From the NCBI RefSeq assembly GCF_031253835.1, contig NZ_JAIRVP010000068.1: DNA of 64,000 nt. One strand, given 5' to 3'. Positions 53,590 to 58,336 of this stretch are shown piece by piece; within the stretch, counting starts at the first letter, position 1; the number at the start of each line of letters is the position of its first letter. Made by a program: the position numbers and the translations under genes. The notes under the pieces were generated by a model, which saw only the letters and a program-made list of their open reading frames with translations, was not told the origin of the DNA and did not search any database. The DNA is from Burkholderia sp. (GTDB taxonomy: Bacteria; Pseudomonadota; Gammaproteobacteria; Burkholderiales; Burkholderiaceae).

Positions 53590-54780
53590 TTAAACGCGCG
53601 TCTGCTTCCCCCGCCGGCGTTGCACGAGCCAGTCGAGCAGTTGCTGCCCGTCGCGCTCGCCGAACCAGCGCGCATGCCCGATCAGGTAGCCGTCGTACGC
53701 GATGTCGACGATCGCCGGCGCATCGATGATGCAGCCGAAATACGCGACTTCTGACAGCGCGAACTCCGTATGCACGATCGGCAGCAGCGCGACCAGCGCC
53801 GCATACGCGTCGTCGCTCAACGGTTCGAGCGATTCGTAGCCGTCGAGCAGCGCGTCGATCTGATCGTATTCGATGCGCCGGGCCTCGGCCGGCGCCATCC
53901 AGTCGACCGTATTGCGCTCGATCGCGAGCGCGAGGTCCATCACCGCGCATGTACGATCCGACAGGCCGAAATCGAGCACGGTCCGCACCTGTGCGCCGGG
54001 GCCCGAATCGGTCCACAGCAGGTTCGATGCATGCCAGTCGCCGTGCGTCCACAGCGGCGGCAACGCGGGCAGCAGCGGCACGAGACGCGCGTGATACGGG
54101 CCGATCGCATCGGCCACGTCGCCGCGCCAGTCGCGCGAACCGAGCGCACGCACGAGCAGCGGCTGCGCATCGACCCAGCGTTCGAGCGCGCCGGCCAGAT
54201 CGGCGGACGACAGCACGCGAAAACTCGACAGCAGCGTGCGCACGGGTCGCGCAGGCGCGTCATAGCCGGCCGACGCGCGATGCAGTTCGGCCAGCGCGCG
54301 GCCGGCCGCGTACGCGTGCGAAGGATGCGTGAACGGCTGCCACGACATCACGCCGCGATACGGGTCGACGCCGGGCGCGAGCACGTGCACCTCGTAGGTC
54401 CAGTCGCCGGACGCAAACGCCGTCGCGCCGTTGCGATCGGCCAGCACGTCCACCACCGGGATGCCGCGTTCACGCAGATGCGCGATGAAACGATGCTCTT
54501 CCTCGAGCCCCGCGACATCGCGCAGGCTAACGTGGTGACGCTTGACGAACAACCCGCGCCCGTCCGCCATCCGCACGAGCACGGCCGCCGCGAACTGGCG
54601 CGGGCTGTGCCACGTGAGCCGCACCGGCTCGCCCGCGCCGTCGATCCGCGCGAGTACGGCCGCCACCTCGCCGTGCGTCATCAGCGGCCAGTCGCGTTCG
54701 GCCTGCTCGCCGTCGACGCCGAATTGCGGCGGCGCGACGTCGCGCGACAGGGGGCCGTCCGGCTCGAGTGGGAATGACAT
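53590..54780 (-). CDS. APH/ThiK-like phosphotransferase-family kinase
   Basis: The Brenner motif is THGDWHASNLLW and the DFG motif is LDFGLSDRTCAVMD. It is the last gene of the TBDR-PnuC operon. Confidence 0.8.
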   Translation of the reverse strand: MSFPLEPDGPLSRDVAPPQFGVDGEQAERDWPLMTHGEVAAVLARIDGAGEPVRLTWHSPRQFAAAVLVRMADGRGLFVKRHHVSLRDVAGLEEEHRFIAHLRERGIPVVDVLADRNGATAFASGDWTYEVHVLAPGVDPYRGVMSWQPFTHPSHAYAAGRALAELHRASAGYDAPARPVRTLLSSFRVLSSADLAGALERWVDAQPLLVRALGSRDWRGDVADAIGPYHARLVPLLPALPPLWTHGDWHASNLLWTDSGPGAQVRTVLDFGLSDRTCAVMDLALAIERNTVDWMAPAEARRIEYDQIDALLDGYESLEPLSDDAYAALVALLPIVHTEFALSEVAYFGCIIDAPAIVDIAYDGYLIGHARWFGERDGQQLLDWLVQRRRGKQTRV

Positions 54781-54816
54781 GAACGACGTTGCTCCGTGGT
54801 TGAATCCGTGCGTGAA

Positions 54817-55505: not shown

Positions 55506-57737
55506 TCAGAAATCATAAGTCAACGACACGCGCGCGGTGCGCGGCGCACCCGGGAACAGGTACGCATCGCCCTGCTGCTCGCCCGCGTCGCGCCAGTAGA
55601 ACTTGTTGAACAGGTTGTCGACCGACACGCGCAGCACCGTGCGATGACCGCCGATCTTCGTCGTGTAGCGCGCGCCGAGATTGAACACGAACCACGACGG
55701 CACGCGCGCGGTGCCTTCCTCGTTCGCATTGCGCGCCGCGCTGTACTCGACGCCGCCGAGCACGTTCAGCCCTGCGACGCCCGGCACCGCGTAGTCCGCA
55801 TACAGCGACGCGCGCAGCGCGGGCACGTTGATGATCTGGTGCCCTTCGTAGGCCGGCGAACCCGAATCGACTGCGCGGGCGCGAATCGCCGCGACGCTGG
55901 CAGTCAGCCCCAGCCGCTCGGTCACGCGCCCGGCCGCGCCAAGCTCGATCCCCTGGTGGCGCTGCGTGCCGCGCTGCACGAACGTGTACGACGTGCCCGA
56001 CGGATCCGGGTCGGCGAACTGGAACGGCTTGCTGATCGAGAACACGGCGGCCGTGAGGCTCAGCCGGTCGAGCCAGTCGTATTTCGCGCCGACCTCGATC
56101 TGGTGCGATTCGACGGGCGGCAGGAACGCATACGCGTTGGTCGCGCGCACGGGCGCCTGGTCGCCGAGCGACAGCGCCTTGCTGTACGACGCATACAGCG
56201 ACAGCACGTTCACCGGCTTGTAGACGAGCGCGACCTGCGGCAGGAACACCGAGCGGTCGGTGTGCGTCGTGTCGCCGTCGAGGCTGCTCCAGCTGCGCTG
56301 GCGCAGCAGCACCTCCTTGCCGCCCGCGAGCACCTGCCAGTGTTCGCCGATGCTGATGCGGTCGAGCCCGAACACGCCGTACTGCCACGCGTCGAGGCGC
56401 GGATACGACGGCCCCGGCGAATTCGGCGACGGCGAAAACGTCACGTCGGGCCCGTAGACATTTTCGCTGCCCACGTAGTCGTACACGGCATCGGCCATGT
56501 GCACGACGCGGCGCTGCACGCTCACGCCGAGCGTCAGCTCGTGCCGCAGCGGCCCCGTCGCGAACTTGCCGGTCGTGACCGCGCGCAAGTCGTCGTTGCG
56601 CCGGTATTCGCCGGGGCTGCGGAAGTCGTACACATCGTAGTCGCCGTTCGCACCGAAGAAGAACGGCGACGTCGCGCCGGCCGTGCAGCTCGCCGCATAC
56701 GAACAGCCGTACGCGAACGCGCTGTTGTCGTCGATCATCGTGCGGCTGCGGCCGGCGGCGATGTAGGCCTTCCAGTCGTCGTTGAACTGGTAGTCGAAGC
56801 GCGCGTTCAGGTTCAGCGCGTCGGTCGTCACGGGTTTCGCCCACGGCTGCGTGCCGAGCGCCTTCGACGTCGTCTTGACCGACGGCACGACGGTGCCGCC
56901 GAGCAGCTGGTAGCCGGGCGCGGAACGCTGGATCCACTGCTGGAATTCGGCGTTGAGCTGCAGGCTGGCGCGCGGGCTGATGTCCCAGTCGGCGGCGATC
57001 GAACCGAACGTGCGCCGTCCGTTCGTGCCGTCGATATAGGAGTGCATGTTCTCCTTCGCGGCATTGATCCGGAAGCCGAACTGGTTATCGGGGCCGAAGC
57101 GGCGGCCGAGATCGACGGCCGCCGACGTCGAGCCGCGGCTGTCGACGCCGCCCGTCACGCTCGACACGTTCGCGGAGCGCTTGGTCACGAAGTTGATCAC
57201 GCCGCCCGGCGCGACGACGCCGCTGTCGATGCCCGCGAGCCCTTTCAGGATCTCGACGCGCTCCTTGTTCTCGAGCGGCACGTTCTGCTCGCCGGACACC
57301 GTCAGCCCGTCGATCCGGATCGCGCTCGCGAGATCGACCGGAAAGCCGCGGATCGCGAAGCCTTCGAAATAGCCGACCGGCGCGTAGTCGTTGACGACCG
57401 ACGCGTCGTTGCGCACGACGTCGCTCAGCCGCTTCGCCTGCTGGTCGTCGATCAGCGCGCGCGTGACGACGTTCACCGACGCCGGCGTATCGCGCAGCGG
57501 CGCGTCGTCGAGCCCCGCGACCGAGGCGTCGCGCGCGCGCAGCGTGCTGCCGCGCTCGCCGCTCACCGTGATCGCGGGCAGCGTCGCCGTGCCCGCCGCG
57601 TCGGCGTCCGGTACGGGCGCGTCGCCCTGTGCCGCGGCGGCCTGCGCCGCGAAAAGCGTGATGCCGAGGCCGACTCCGAGCCCGGCCTTCGTGCGCCGCC
57701 GCCGTGCGGACGTCGCTGTTGTTCTATTCACCGTCAT
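55506..57737 (-). CDS. TonB-dependent outer-membrane receptor
   Basis: An internal Met is followed by a signal peptide ([36 protein letters not shown]), then a plug domain and a 22-strand barrel ending RVSLTYDF. Confidence 0.9.
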   Translation of the reverse strand: MTVNRTTATSARRRRTKAGLGVGLGITLFAAQAAAAQGDAPVPDADAAGTATLPAITVSGERGSTLRARDASVAGLDDAPLRDTPASVNVVTRALIDDQQAKRLSDVVRNDASVVNDYAPVGYFEGFAIRGFPVDLASAIRIDGLTVSGEQNVPLENKERVEILKGLAGIDSGVVAPGGVINFVTKRSANVSSVTGGVDSRGSTSAAVDLGRRFGPDNQFGFRINAAKENMHSYIDGTNGRRTFGSIAADWDISPRASLQLNAEFQQWIQRSAPGYQLLGGTVVPSVKTTSKALGTQPWAKPVTTDALNLNARFDYQFNDDWKAYIAAGRSRTMIDDNSAFAYGCSYAASCTAGATSPFFFGANGDYDVYDFRSPGEYRRNDDLRAVTTGKFATGPLRHELTLGVSVQRRVVHMADAVYDYVGSENVYGPDVTFSPSPNSPGPSYPRLDAWQYGVFGLDRISIGEHWQVLAGGKEVLLRQRSWSSLDGDTTHTDRSVFLPQVALVYKPVNVLSLYASYSKALSLGDQAPVRATNAYAFLPPVESHQIEVGAKYDWLDRLSLTAAVFSISKPFQFADPDPSGTSYTFVQRGTQRHQGIELGAAGRVTERLGLTASVAAIRARAVDSGSPAYEGHQIINVPALRASLYADYAVPGVAGLNVLGGVEYSAARNANEEGTARVPSWFVFNLGARYTTKIGGHRTVLRVSVDNLFNKFYWRDAGEQQGDAYLFPGAPRTARVSLTYDF

Positions 57738-58336
57738 TGTTCTGGATGGAAAACTCGCCACTCGACCCTGTCGAAACACGTTACGAAGCTGCGAAGCGTG
57801 CCCCCGCAGGTGCAATCCGCACCGTCACCGGCCGCGTGCGTCGACACGAGATTCATCCGACGAACCGGACGATACGGCACGCACGCGTGCCGGCCGGTCA
57901 GGAAGACGCAGGATGGGACATCGGATTCAGGTGACGCGCCGGGCACCGGCGCAGCCGCCGACGGGTTCGTCGGGAACTGGCAGGCGGCCGGCGGCATCGC
58001 GCGGTCGTGTCATGCGGGGGACGCTTCGAACGCCCCGGTGCGGGCGGCGGGCACTTGCGCCGGCCGTTCATCGGAACGGCGGCCTGCCCGTCGCGCGCGA
58101 CATCGCGGCGTGGCGCGCATTTTACCCCGGGCGGGACCGAGGGCCGTGGAATCGGGCGGAACGGCAGGCGGGAGCGGCGAGACCGGGGAAATTGGCTTCG
58201 GGCGGTACGGCATCGGCGGCGATGCGACTGCGGTGCCCGTGGTGTGTGGCGACTTCGACAACCGGTGCAGTCATGCGCCGGTCGAACGAACGAAAACCGG
58301 AGCGGGCATGACGGCCCGCTGCCGGTTCAACGCCGC

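What the first reader, a model, noticed from the sequence alone, without database searches (positions are those of the whole stretch)
53590..58336. TonB receptor / PnuC-like transporter / APH-like kinase operon behind a ~550-nt leader with no TPP box
This gene triad (TBDR, PnuT-like transporter, ThiK-like kinase) is the classic thiamine-salvage arrangement, which is normally controlled by a THI-box (TPP) riboswitch. Here the leader between the upstream terminator-like hairpin (~58290-58335) and the TBDR start (57737) is very long and GC-rich, yet the invariant CUGAGA of the TPP aptamer is absent on the coding (minus) strand. Either a different riboswitch class, a protein regulator or a different vitamin/nucleoside substrate (for example nicotinamide riboside) is involved.
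Basis: partly seen in the sequence, partly recalled or inferred. Interest (0 to 1): 0.65.

Follow-up and report, generated by a model that had tools for sequence, protein, structure and literature searches.

The report
Uptake operon with fossil-gene leader
A Burkholderia operon for taking up and phosphorylating an unknown small nutrient sits behind a long GC-rich leader that is probably not a riboswitch but largely the decayed remnant of a lost regulator gene, so the finding is mostly ordinary.

Summary
The three genes are real, intact and conserved: a siderophore-type TonB-dependent receptor (57737-55506), a PnuC-family transporter (55446-54817) and an APH-fold kinase (54780-53590), all on the minus strand. 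[quoted passage not shown] The 599-nt upstream gap, its terminator hairpin and the absence of CUGAGA are also confirmed.

No Rfam family matches the leader, even at E<=10. No TPP riboswitch was found in 16 related loci scanned with Rfam, nor by a core-motif scan of all 85 loci.

An invariant promoter core (TAAAAT plus a GC-rich discriminator, 58124-58112) travels with the operon in 30 Burkholderia sequences (29 loci plus the window). The distance from this core to the ATG ranges from 63 to 435 nt. The leader is found only in Burkholderia, evolves at about the synonymous rate and is full of indels.

Its central part resembles the antisense 3' end of a divergent LysR regulator gene. That gene accompanies the ancestral five-gene form of the cluster, which also carries a ThiY/THI5-like protein and a rhodanese, in Paraburkholderia. 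B. singularis keeps an unambiguous LysR pseudogene at the same place.

Regulation is therefore most likely by a protein acting at the promoter. The substrate is unknown; it is not shown to be thiamine. Interest is low to moderate.

The parts
53590..54780 (-). APH-fold small-molecule kinase (396 aa), third gene of the operon
   Evidence: PF01636, E 3.5e-21. The Brenner motif HGDWHASN and a DFG motif are invariant in 19 homologues. The AF2 model has pLDDT 82, and its best PDB neighbours are homoserine kinase II 2PPQ, NahK, YtaA and AmiN at about 15% identity. The NCBIfam ThiK model is not among the matches.
54817..55446 (-). PnuC-family inner-membrane transporter (209 aa)
   Evidence: PF04973, E 2.8e-54. 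TIGR01528 scores 80.1 bits against a cut-off of 42.45. PDB 4QTN (PnuC) matches at E 1e-10. Fusions of PnuC with this kinase exist in other organisms.
55506..57737 (-). TonB-dependent receptor of the siderophore subfamily (743 aa), first gene
   Evidence: Plug plus barrel domains, and TIGR01783 at 417.6 bits. The closest solved structures are FemA, BauA and the enantio-pyochelin receptor. In the BCC, identity is 0.93 over all sites against 0.84 at 4-fold sites, which indicates purifying selection.
57738..57770 (-). Conserved translation-initiation region (GAGUGGCGAGUUUUCCAUCCAGAACA-AUG) with no Shine-Dalgarno sequence
   Evidence: Column conservation is 0.94-0.99 in 26 BCC sequences (25 loci plus the window). 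UCCAGAACAAUG-like sequence is also seen in Caballeronia and Paraburkholderia.
57738..58111 (-). Inferred 5' UTR (about 374 nt), GC-rich and hairpin-rich
   Evidence: This is the stretch from the inferred +1 to the ATG. Length from the first base after the -10 box to the ATG is 63 nt (L027, L028), 262-290 nt (L029, L031) and 367-435 nt (other BCC). Pairwise identity is 0.83 with 25% gaps. Folding z-score is -2.5 for the sense strand and -3.1 for the antisense strand.
57875..57948 (+). Core of the putative relic of the 3' end of a lost divergent LysR gene (it reads on the + strand, antisense to the operon). The relic may extend to about 57789-58041.
   Evidence: An nhmmer profile of the BCC leaders hits the antisense LysR 3' ends in L042 (E 1.6e-4), L037, L036 and L039. 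A LysR HMM hits the antisense translations of the leaders: 14.2 bits in L019, against a maximum of 8.3 in 1039 shuffles. Window 57875-57948 is 73% identical to L037 2903-2982. The window translation reads QEDAGWDIGFR*R against LysR EDADARWDVGLTWR. The window itself scores only 0.5 bits.
58096..58107 (-). 5'-proximal hairpin CGCGAUGUCGCG
   Evidence: A hairpin sits at the same place but with a different sequence in the three leader types: GCAACGCGUUGC in L029 and L031, and CCUGCGUUGCAGG in L027 and L028.
58112..58133 (-). Promoter core: CCCGGGG-TAAAAT (-10 at 58124-58119) followed by the GC-rich discriminator GCGCGCC. The probable +1 is the A at 58111.
   Evidence: TAAAATGCGC is present in all 29 Burkholderia loci that hold the upstream region, and in the window, whatever gene lies upstream. 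It occurs once in the window. There is no -35 match, and the consensus scan finds no sigma-70 promoter in 57500-58700. The site is therefore inferred to depend on an activator.
58130..58212 (-). Two copies of a 37-nt direct repeat (46-nt period) containing CCGT(T/A)CCGCCCGA(TT/AG)CC. This is a candidate regulator-binding region centred near -40 to -100.
   Evidence: the repeat finder family D1. The motif CGTTCC-N5-GATTCC, about 23 nt upstream of the -10 box, is conserved in the BCC, L027/L028 and L029/L031.
58283..58327 (-). Intrinsic terminator of the upstream DUF2970 gene
   Evidence: Inverted repeat I7. The fold energy is -38.7 kcal/mol and the stem is followed by UUUUCGUUCGUU.
58337..58540 (-). 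DUF2970 gene (67 aa), the upstream neighbour and not part of the operon
   Evidence: PF11174, E 8.4e-13. The gene is replaced by an acyl-CoA-synthetase-like gene in L022, L027, L028 and L033, while the promoter stays.

Best explanation
This is a three-gene 'import and trap' operon. A TonB-dependent receptor brings a small molecule across the outer membrane. A PnuC-family facilitator carries it across the inner membrane. An APH-fold kinase phosphorylates it so that it cannot leave. This mechanism is inferred from the Pnu paradigm and from PnuC-kinase fusions.

The operon is a reduced descendant of a five-gene cluster: receptor, cytoplasmic ThiY/THI5-like protein, PnuC, kinase and rhodanese, with a divergently transcribed LysR regulator. 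That cluster is still found in Paraburkholderia. The substrate is unknown. It may be a thiamine-pyrimidine-like or sulfur-containing metabolite, and thiamine itself is not shown.

The long upstream region is not a riboswitch. It is made of four parts:
- the terminator of the upstream gene;
- a variable spacer with direct repeats;
- an invariant promoter core that lacks a -35 element (TAAAAT plus a GC-rich discriminator);
- a roughly 375-nt 5' UTR whose central part is the decayed antisense remnant of the 3' end of the lost LysR gene.

The leader interior drifts at roughly the synonymous rate and can be deleted. Control is therefore most likely exerted at transcription initiation by a trans-acting protein. 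The leader at most affects mRNA stability or translation through its hairpins.
For: Genes and their conservation.
- The genes and domains are identified, and the kinase's catalytic motifs are intact.
- The triad is conserved in Burkholderia, Paraburkholderia, Caballeronia and Robbsia.

The larger cluster.
- The five-gene form with LysR occurs in L034, L036, L037, L039 and L042. Related clusters occur in Pseudomonas (L082), Paenibacillus (L053 and others) and Streptacidiphilus (L084).
- PnuC-kinase fusions exist.

No known RNA family.
- Rfam gives no relevant hit in the window or in orthologous leaders.
- No TPP riboswitch was found in 16 related loci, and there is no TPP core motif in 1.39 Mb of loci.

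The promoter and the leader.
- The promoter box is invariant in 29 loci plus the window, while the leader is 63-435 nt long.
- Leader identity is 0.83 against 0.84 at 4-fold sites, with 25% gaps and tandem-repeat expansions.

The LysR relic.
- nhmmer gives E 1.6e-4 to 1e-2 at the antisense LysR 3' ends.
- The LysR HMM scores 14.2 bits in L019 against a shuffle maximum of 8.3, and 12 of 26 leaders exceed the 97th percentile of shuffles.
- The window is 73% identical at the nucleotide level to L037, and its translation carries the AGWDIG motif.
- B. singularis has an unambiguous LysR pseudogene at the same place (E 2.5e-25).

Other readings excluded.
- There is no Fur box (best match 9 of 19).
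- ORF87 is not coding.
Against: - The transcription start is inferred from conservation only. The published J2315 TSS tables held here do not contain this promoter.
- The relic signal in the window itself is at noise level (0.5 bits, reached by 7.5% of shuffles). The relic rests on homologous leaders of sister species, and nhmmer also gave one presumably spurious hit at E 0.0017.
- The BCC leaders show more conserved pairing than column-shuffled alignments (z -5.7). Eight pairs have double changes, and 23 cells covary against 5.8 expected. Some RNA-level constraint is therefore possible.
- The regulator acting at the promoter is unidentified.
- The substrate is unknown.
Confidence: 0.6

Rival explanations
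1. The BCC leader is a lineage-specific cis-regulatory RNA, either a new riboswitch or a binding platform for a protein or sRNA. It would sense the operon's substrate and control translation or Rho-dependent termination.
For: - The consensus structure is more stable than column shuffles (z -5.7).
- Covariation is above shuffles, including pair 250:408 with CG10/UA10/UG7.
- Local hairpins carry compensatory changes: GACGAACCCGUC against GAUCCACGGAUC, and CCGACCGGUCGG against CCGAUCGAUCGG.
- A C-rich, G-poor conserved block lies at 57926-57907.
- The conserved start region has no Shine-Dalgarno sequence.
Against: - No Rfam match.
- The antisense strand scores almost as well (z -4.8 for the alignment, -3.1 for the single sequence).
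- The leader is absent from L027 and L028 and partly deleted in L029 and L031, behind the same promoter and intact genes.
- There is no counterpart upstream of the orthologous operons in Paraburkholderia, Caballeronia or Robbsia.
- The best-conserved block is the relic of LysR codons.
- No terminator or start-codon-sequestering platform is present.
- Divergence is at the synonymous rate.
Confidence: 0.1
2. The distal TAAAAT box is not the operon's promoter. Transcription would start close to the ATG, possibly giving a leaderless mRNA from TCGACA-N17-TTCCAT, so the long region is simply untranscribed spacer.
For: - There is no Shine-Dalgarno sequence before the ATG.
- A weak -35/-10-like pair (TCGACA, 17 nt, TTCCAT) ends 8 nt before the ATG (sequence).
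- The proximal 80 nt are the best-conserved part of the region.
Against: - TTCCAT lacks the key A2 position of the -10 hexamer and was not called by the scan.
- The TCGACA element is missing in L027 and L028, where TAAAAT lies 69 nt from the ATG.
- The TAAAAT box is invariant and moves with the operon into different upstream contexts.
Confidence: 0.15
3. The operon is an iron-regulated siderophore uptake system, and the upstream region carries a Fur operator.
For: The receptor belongs to the siderophore subfamily, and its closest structures are FemA, BauA and FetA.
Against: - The best match to the 19-bp Fur box is 8-9 of 19 on either strand.
- The partner genes are a Pnu facilitator and a kinase, not a siderophore ABC or MFS importer or a reductase.
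- In other genomes the kinase partners with ThiY/THI5-like, rhodanese and sulfonate-type genes.
Confidence: 0.05
4. The operon is a classical thiamine-salvage operon whose TPP riboswitch is too diverged to be recognised.
For: - The arrangement is analogous to OMthi-pnuT-tnr3 (PMC5613172).
- A SEED-style name given to one homologue reads 'PnuC-associated, THI-regulated branch' (P0041).
- ThiY-like partners occur in related clusters.
Against: - No RF00059 match, even at E<=10, in the leader or in an orthologous leader.
- No CUGAGA.
- No TPP riboswitch in 16 related loci, nor by a core-motif scan of all 85 loci.
- The kinase is neither ThiK nor TPK.
Confidence: 0.02
5. The leader encodes a small protein (ORF 57997-57734, 87 aa, with ATGA overlap onto the receptor start) that is translationally coupled to the receptor.
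For: The ORF and its stop/start overlap exist in the window.
Against: - GC by codon position is 0.65/0.61/0.74, against GC3 of 0.86-0.92 in the real genes.
- The open frame upstream of the ATGA ranges from 6 to 133 codons among sister species.
- Indels are not multiples of three.
Confidence: 0.02

Closest known systems
Bacteroides OMthi-PnuT-Tnr3 thiamine uptake operon with TPP riboswitch (PMC5613172)
   Same: The logic and gene order are the same: a TonB-dependent outer-membrane transporter, a Pnu-family inner-membrane facilitator, and a cytoplasmic kinase that traps the substrate.
   Different: - The kinase here is APH-fold, not a thiamine pyrophosphokinase.
- The receptor is of the siderophore subfamily.
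- There is no TPP riboswitch, here or in any of the 85 related loci.
- The substrate is unproven.
PnuC / NadR nicotinamide riboside uptake (PnuC structure 4QTN)
   Same: The transporter belongs to the PF04973 family (E 2.8e-54). Facilitated diffusion coupled to phosphorylation is the presumed principle.
   Different: - The match to 4QTN is only E 1e-10.
- The partner kinase is not a NadR-type or P-loop ribosylnicotinamide kinase.
- There is no NAD-related neighbour gene and no NAD+ riboswitch.
ThiXYZ/ThiY formylaminopyrimidine salvage (ThiY structure 3IX1)
   Same: In the fuller versions of this cluster the kinase sits next to ThiY/THI5-family proteins (3IX1 at E 8e-19, 4NMY at E 3.5e-20). In Gram-positives it also sits next to an ABC importer.
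   Different: - The conserved partner is a cytoplasmic protein without a signal peptide.
- A rhodanese is also conserved.
- The BCC operon in the window has lost both.
SEED/RAST role 'Putative homoserine kinase type II, PnuC-associated, THI-regulated branch'
   Same: This name is attached to a homologue of the kinase that is 66% identical (P0041). The PnuC-kinase association had therefore been noticed by annotators.
   Different: No THI (TPP) element was found next to any member examined here. No experimental function is known to me.
Divergent LysR-type regulator / target operon pairs, and their pseudogenised remnants
   Same: Paraburkholderia orthologues have the typical divergent LysR gene. 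B. singularis has a clear pseudogene of it. The BCC leader retains a short similar stretch in the expected orientation.
   Different: In the BCC only about 25-85 codons' worth of sequence is recognisable, and it now lies inside the inferred 5' UTR. The signal in the window itself is at noise level.

Membership tests
TPP (THI-box) riboswitch, Rfam RF00059 | Covariance-model score at or above the gathering threshold | tested here: not met
   There is no match at gathering in the window. No RF00059 match at E<=10 in 57500-58700 or in the L008 leader.
TPP (THI-box) riboswitch, Rfam RF00059 | Invariant CUGAGA core followed by ACCUGA...UAAU.CC | tested here: not met
   No CTGAGA on either strand of 57000-58700. 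There are no strict core matches in 1.39 Mb of related loci.
TPP (THI-box) riboswitch, Rfam RF00059 | Presence upstream of orthologous operons | tested here: not met
   No TPP riboswitch in 16 related loci covering Burkholderia, Paraburkholderia, Caballeronia, Robbsia, Herbaspirillum, Paenibacillus, Acetobacter, Mycoavidus and Elstera.
Any described riboswitch or cis-regulatory RNA (Rfam 15, 4227 families) | Match to a curated covariance model | tested here: not met
   Searches gave only chance-level hits to unrelated sRNA models (E 2-7).
Novel riboswitch (general criteria) | A conserved aptamer across diverse taxa upstream of functionally related genes, with covarying helices and an expression platform | tested here: not met
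   - The leader is confined to Burkholderia; an nhmmer profile finds it nowhere else except the LysR antisense hits.
- It is absent in L027 and L028.
- Covariation is modest and not strand-specific.
- There is no terminator or start-site-sequestering element.
Pnu transporter family (PF04973 / TIGR01528) | Profile match above the curated cut-off | tested here: met
   PF04973 scores 184.2 bits (cut-off 27.3) and TIGR01528 scores 80.1 bits (cut-off 42.45).
PnuT (thiamine-specific Pnu subfamily) | Genomic linkage to a thiamine pyrophosphokinase and/or a TPP riboswitch; thiamine transport | tested here: not met
   Linkage is absent. Transport itself cannot be tested with these tools.
TonB-dependent siderophore receptor (TIGR01783) | Plug plus 22-strand barrel profile above the cut-off | tested here: met
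   417.6 bits against a cut-off of 223.5. FemA and BauA are the closest structures.
Fur-regulated iron uptake operon | A Fur box near the promoter | tested here: not met
   The best match is 8-9 of 19 to GATAATGATAATCATTATC.
APH / eukaryotic-like kinase fold (PF01636) | Profile match, and intact HxDxxxxN catalytic loop and DFG motif | tested here: met
   PF01636 scores 76.5 bits. H246, D248, N253 and D270-F271-G272 are invariant. The fold is confirmed by the AF2 model and Foldseek.
Thiamine kinase ThiK / thiamine pyrophosphokinase | Match to the ThiK (NCBIfam) or TPK (Pfam) models | tested here: not met
   Neither is among the hits. The best NCBIfam hits are homoserine kinase type II (E 1e-12) and SrkA, both far below cut-off.
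LysR-gene relic in the leader | Significant similarity to LysR orthologues, in the divergent orientation, at the syntenic place | tested here: inconclusive
   - Met for sister species: L019 scores 14.2 bits against a shuffle maximum of 8.3, and nhmmer gives E 1.6e-4.
- Met clearly in B. singularis (E 2.5e-25).
- The window alone scores 0.5 bits, although it aligns at 73% nucleotide identity over 74 nt.

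The most novel reading that the evidence does not exclude
The Burkholderia cepacia complex has co-opted the fossil of its lost LysR regulator gene, now transcribed in antisense as a 5' UTR, into a structured cis-regulatory RNA. This RNA would sense the still unknown substrate of the receptor/PnuC/kinase system. The riboswitch-like element would thus be born from a pseudogene and replace a protein regulator.
Probability: 0.06. Interest if true: 0.75.

Novelty: new variant of a known kind. 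Interest (0 to 1): 0.25.

Why it matters
For the leader, the result is a useful negative. A long GC-rich gap in front of a vitamin-type uptake operon looked like an orphan riboswitch. Comparative data show instead a drifting, deletable 5' UTR that is probably a gene fossil.

The more useful lead lies elsewhere. The kinase belongs to an uncharacterised cluster spread over Proteobacteria, Firmicutes and Actinobacteria. It comprises the APH-fold kinase, a cytoplasmic ThiY/THI5-like protein, a rhodanese, and either a PnuC or an ABC importer, sometimes with a TonB-dependent receptor. The substrate and pathway of this cluster are unknown. Identifying them could add a new member to the short list of Pnu substrates.

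Tried and rejected
- Rfam at the gathering threshold on the whole window, and at E<=10 on the leader and on one orthologous leader. Nothing relevant came up.
- Rfam on 16 related loci, and a regex for the TPP core on all loci. No TPP riboswitch was found.
- Fur box scan. Matches were at chance level.
- Leader peptide or ORF87. Rejected on codon-position GC and on frame conservation.
- Leader as a repeated or mobile element. It occurs at a single place per replicon in three Burkholderia chromosome-2 records, and the promoter box occurs once in the window.
- The 5'-3' 'closing helix' (GCGCGCCAC with GUGGCGAG). It was attractive at first, with AU16/GU9/GC3 at one pair. Its 5' arm, however, lies in the discriminator between the -10 box and the probable +1, so it may not be in the RNA. 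I left it as unproven.
- Published B. cenocepacia J2315 TSS tables (PMC4603805). The promoter sequence is not in the held files, which are truncated and, in the passages seen, listed only chromosome-1 genes.
- Literature searches for this gene combination in Burkholderia. Nothing relevant was found.
- Sequence search of the kinase against the PDB gave no hit. The fold search gives only generic APH-fold neighbours, so the substrate cannot be inferred.
- Annotated records for the locus. The PLSDB entry carried no features.

Full report
**1. What is there**

[quoted passage not shown] The kinase is 96-97% identical to those of B. catarinensis, B. orbicola and B. cenocepacia.

Three closely spaced genes lie on the minus strand:
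- A TonB-dependent receptor at 57737-55506. It has Plug and barrel domains and scores 417.6 bits against TIGR01783 'siderophore receptor' (cut-off 223.5).
- A PnuC-family transporter at 55446-54817 (PF04973, E 2.8e-54).
- An APH-fold kinase at 54780-53590 (PF01636, E 3.5e-21).

Upstream lies a DUF2970 gene (58540-58337) with a strong hairpin and a U-rich tail (58327-58283; -38.7 kcal/mol). The gap to the receptor ATG is 599 nt and 69.9% GC. It contains no CTGAGA on either strand.

**2. No known RNA family**

Rfam 15 gives nothing at gathering thresholds in the whole window. Only two chance-level hits to unrelated models appear at E<=10 in 57500-58700. An orthologous leader (L008) likewise gives nothing.

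I fetched 80 loci encoding relatives of the kinase and five more later. No TPP riboswitch was found in 16 of them that were chosen to span all the genera. A regular expression for the TPP core finds nothing in all 1.39 Mb. This kinase family, as sampled here, is not riboswitch-controlled, despite the SEED-style name 'PnuC-associated, THI-regulated branch' carried by one homologue (P0041).

**3. Anatomy of the upstream region by comparison**

The box CCCGGGG-TAAAAT-GCGCGCC (window 58133-58112) is present in all 29 Burkholderia loci that contain the region, and in the window. This includes loci where the upstream gene is not DUF2970 (L022, L027, L028, L033). It is the only AT-rich hexamer in the region. 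It has no -35 partner, and the consensus scan calls no promoter. It is followed by a GC-rich discriminator that resembles the one I recall for E. coli rrnB P1 (TATAAT-GCGCCACC-A; my own knowledge, not tested).

I take this box as the -10 of an activator-dependent promoter with +1 near A58111. This is an inference. Upstream of it lie two copies of a 37-nt direct repeat (58130-58166 and 58176-58212). They carry a conserved CGTTCC-N5-GATTCC motif and are a candidate protein-binding region.

Measured from the first base after the -10 box, the distance to the ATG is 367-435 nt in most BCC species, 262-290 nt in L029 and L031, and only 63 nt in L027 and L028. The three genes are intact in all of them. 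The last roughly 45 nt before the ATG (GAGUGGCGAGUUUUCCAUCCAGAACA) are nearly invariant and lack a Shine-Dalgarno sequence. Just upstream of them, short tandem repeats vary in copy number.

The interior of the leader is therefore dispensable and plastic.

**4. Is the leader a structured RNA?**

- The window leader folds somewhat better than dinucleotide shuffles (z -2.5), but its antisense does so too (z -3.1).
- For the alignment of 28 leaders, the consensus structure energy beats column shuffles on both strands (z -5.7 sense, -4.8 antisense).
- Counting pairs on the RNAalifold structure gives 8 pairs with changes on both sides. It gives 23 covarying cells against 5.8 in shuffles.
- Several local hairpins show compensatory changes.
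- A hairpin close to the 5' end is present in all three leader types, with unrelated sequences.
- A tempting pairing joins the first nine bases after the -10 box with GUGGCGAG before the start region. Its 5' arm lies mostly upstream of the probable +1, so I do not rely on it.

Overall there is hairpin-rich, partly conserved structure. It is not strand-specific, it does not extend beyond Burkholderia, and it has no recognisable expression platform.

**5. Rate of change**

Within the BCC the leader's pairwise identity in aligned columns is 0.83, with 25% gap columns. The receptor gene shows 0.84 at 4-fold degenerate sites and 0.93 over all sites. The leader thus drifts at about the synonymous rate while the genes are under purifying selection.

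The spacer upstream of the promoter aligns much worse (0.56). It is full of repeats, so that comparison is not clean.

**6. Where the leader comes from**

The orthologous operon in Paraburkholderia (L036, L037, L039, L042) and in a second copy in Burkholderia sp. Ac-20353 (L034) has five genes: receptor, NMT1/THI5-like protein, PnuC, kinase and rhodanese. A divergently transcribed LysR gene sits about 235 nt upstream.

B. singularis (L032) has a clear LysR pseudogene at that place (E 2.5e-25) and a fragment of the NMT1 gene. It represents an intermediate stage of decay.

The evidence that the BCC leader descends from this LysR gene is as follows:
- A nucleotide profile of the BCC leaders finds the leaders themselves. 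Its next best hits are the antisense 3' ends of those LysR genes in L042 (E 1.6e-4), L037 (4e-4), L036 (2.5e-3) and L039 (1e-2), and they are colinear.
- A protein HMM of the five LysR orthologues hits the antisense translation of the leaders. The hits fall always at HMM positions 244-273, about 145-220 nt upstream of the ATG. The LysR sequence CLPIeDADArWDVGLTWR aligns with C(G/V)PIDRESAGWDIGxRWR.
- L019 scores 14.2 bits, while the best of 1039 dinucleotide shuffles scores 8.3. Twelve of 26 leaders exceed the 97th percentile.
- The window is among the more decayed: 0.5 bits, a score reached by 7.5% of shuffles. It still reads QEDAGWDIGFR*R on the + strand at 57842-57949. It also aligns at 73% identity over 74 nt with L037.
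- The best-conserved internal block of the leader (AUCCGAUGUCCCAUCCUGCG, 57926-57907) is the reverse complement of the AGWDIG codons.

I conclude, with moderate confidence, that a deletion in the BCC ancestor removed most of the LysR gene and the old promoter. The ThiY/THI5-like and rhodanese genes are also missing from the BCC operon. What was left of the LysR gene became part of a new, long 5' UTR.

**7. What the operon does**

The receptor's closest solved relatives are FemA, BauA and the enantio-pyochelin receptor, but there is no Fur box. The transporter matches PnuC 4QTN at E 1e-10.

The kinase has no sequence match in the PDB. Its AF2 model (pLDDT 82) resembles homoserine kinase type II, N-acetylhexosamine kinase, YtaA, amicoumacin kinase and YihE at about 15% identity. 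It is thus a generic small-molecule kinase of the APH fold, with intact HGDxxxxN and DFG motifs. It is neither ThiK nor a thiamine pyrophosphokinase.

Fusions of PnuC with this kinase exist (P0047, P0049, P0060-62; L081). They support the 'facilitated diffusion plus phosphorylative trapping' logic known for Pnu systems (established knowledge).

In other phyla the kinase is linked to:
- a cytoplasmic ThiY/THI5-family protein without a signal peptide, whose closest structures are 4NMY and the FAMP-binding ThiY 3IX1;
- a two-domain rhodanese of the mercaptopyruvate-sulfurtransferase type;
- a ThiY-like lipoprotein with an ABC importer in Paenibacillus and Streptacidiphilus, in the latter with a NUDIX gene;
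- in one Pseudomonas, SsuD-like monooxygenases, a sigma-54 activator and a PhnR-like GntR regulator.

This points to a pyrimidine-like and/or sulfur-containing metabolite. The substrate is not identified.

**8. Comparison with what is known**

The nearest described system is the Bacteroides OMthi-pnuT-tnr3 operon under a TPP riboswitch (PMC5613172). The logic is the same, but the kinase class differs, the receptor subfamily is not shown to match, and there is no riboswitch here. The operon is therefore a variant of a known kind of uptake system.

The leader is not a member of any known RNA family and fails the general criteria for a new riboswitch class.

**9. Verdict**

The riboswitch idea is not supported.

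The main uncertainty is the unmapped transcription start. The published J2315 TSS supplements held here did not contain this promoter. A second uncertainty is the weak relic signal in the window itself.

Noticed in passing
L036 6213-7160 and 9143-10060; L082 5084-8023; L053 5988-7938; L084 491-6004: A recurrent, apparently uncharacterised cluster spans Proteobacteria, Firmicutes and Actinobacteria. It comprises a cytoplasmic ThiY/THI5-like protein (N-terminus VMLEYFHPW.NSAGFY, no signal peptide), this APH-fold kinase and a two-domain rhodanese. The importer is either PnuC (with or without a TonB-dependent receptor) or a ThiY-like lipoprotein with an ABC system. The regulators differ between lineages: LysR, GntR/PhnR-like, or AraC with a periplasmic-binding domain.
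   Followed up: partly
L032 3938-4327 (LysR) and 6988-7212 (NMT1): Burkholderia singularis carries pseudogene remnants of both the divergent LysR regulator (E 2.5e-25) and the NMT1/THI5-like gene. It is an intermediate between the five-gene Paraburkholderia cluster and the three-gene BCC operon.
   Followed up: partly
L028 and L034 (both Burkholderia sp. Ac-20353): One genome holds both forms of the cluster: the three-gene form with a 63-nt leader, and the five-gene form with LysR. The receptor of the five-gene copy is 92% identical to the window's, while its PnuC and kinase are only 67-69% identical. This suggests recombination between the two copies.
   Followed up: no
P0047, P0049, P0053-P0055, P0060-P0062; L081 6001-7956: Single polypeptides of 624-674 aa fuse the PnuC transporter to the APH-fold kinase. 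In L081 the fusion follows a TonB-dependent receptor and lies next to sulfate-type ABC transporter genes (CysA-like).
   Followed up: partly
window 58130-58166 and 58176-58212: A 37-nt direct repeat (76% identical, 46-nt period) lies immediately upstream of the promoter core and carries the conserved CCGT(T/A)CCGCCCGA motif. It is a possible tandem operator, but no binding protein has been identified.
   Followed up: partly
L025 about 5000-5040, L024, L001, L003; L018 about 4560-4600: Short tandem repeats (GTTTCGAG, GCGTAAC, CGTTTCCAG) just upstream of the start region vary in copy number between species. A CCCGTA microsatellite lies upstream of the promoter in L018.
   Followed up: no
window 55452-58391 (+), 57391-58311 (+): Very long ORFs (979 and 306 aa) run antisense to the receptor gene and the leader. 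They are the usual high-GC artefacts and have no family match of their own.
   Followed up: no
L062 5302-5608: Rfam finds a group I intron (RF00028; 67.9 bits, E 8.6e-15) in a Mycoavidus cysteinexigens MAG, about 2.4 kb upstream of the kinase homologue.
   Followed up: no
window 58663-60831 (-): A 722-aa protein combines a PNPOx-like FMN-binding domain, a ferredoxin-reductase FAD/NAD module and a 2Fe-2S ferredoxin domain. It lies upstream of DUF2970 and is syntenic in most BCC loci.
   Followed up: no
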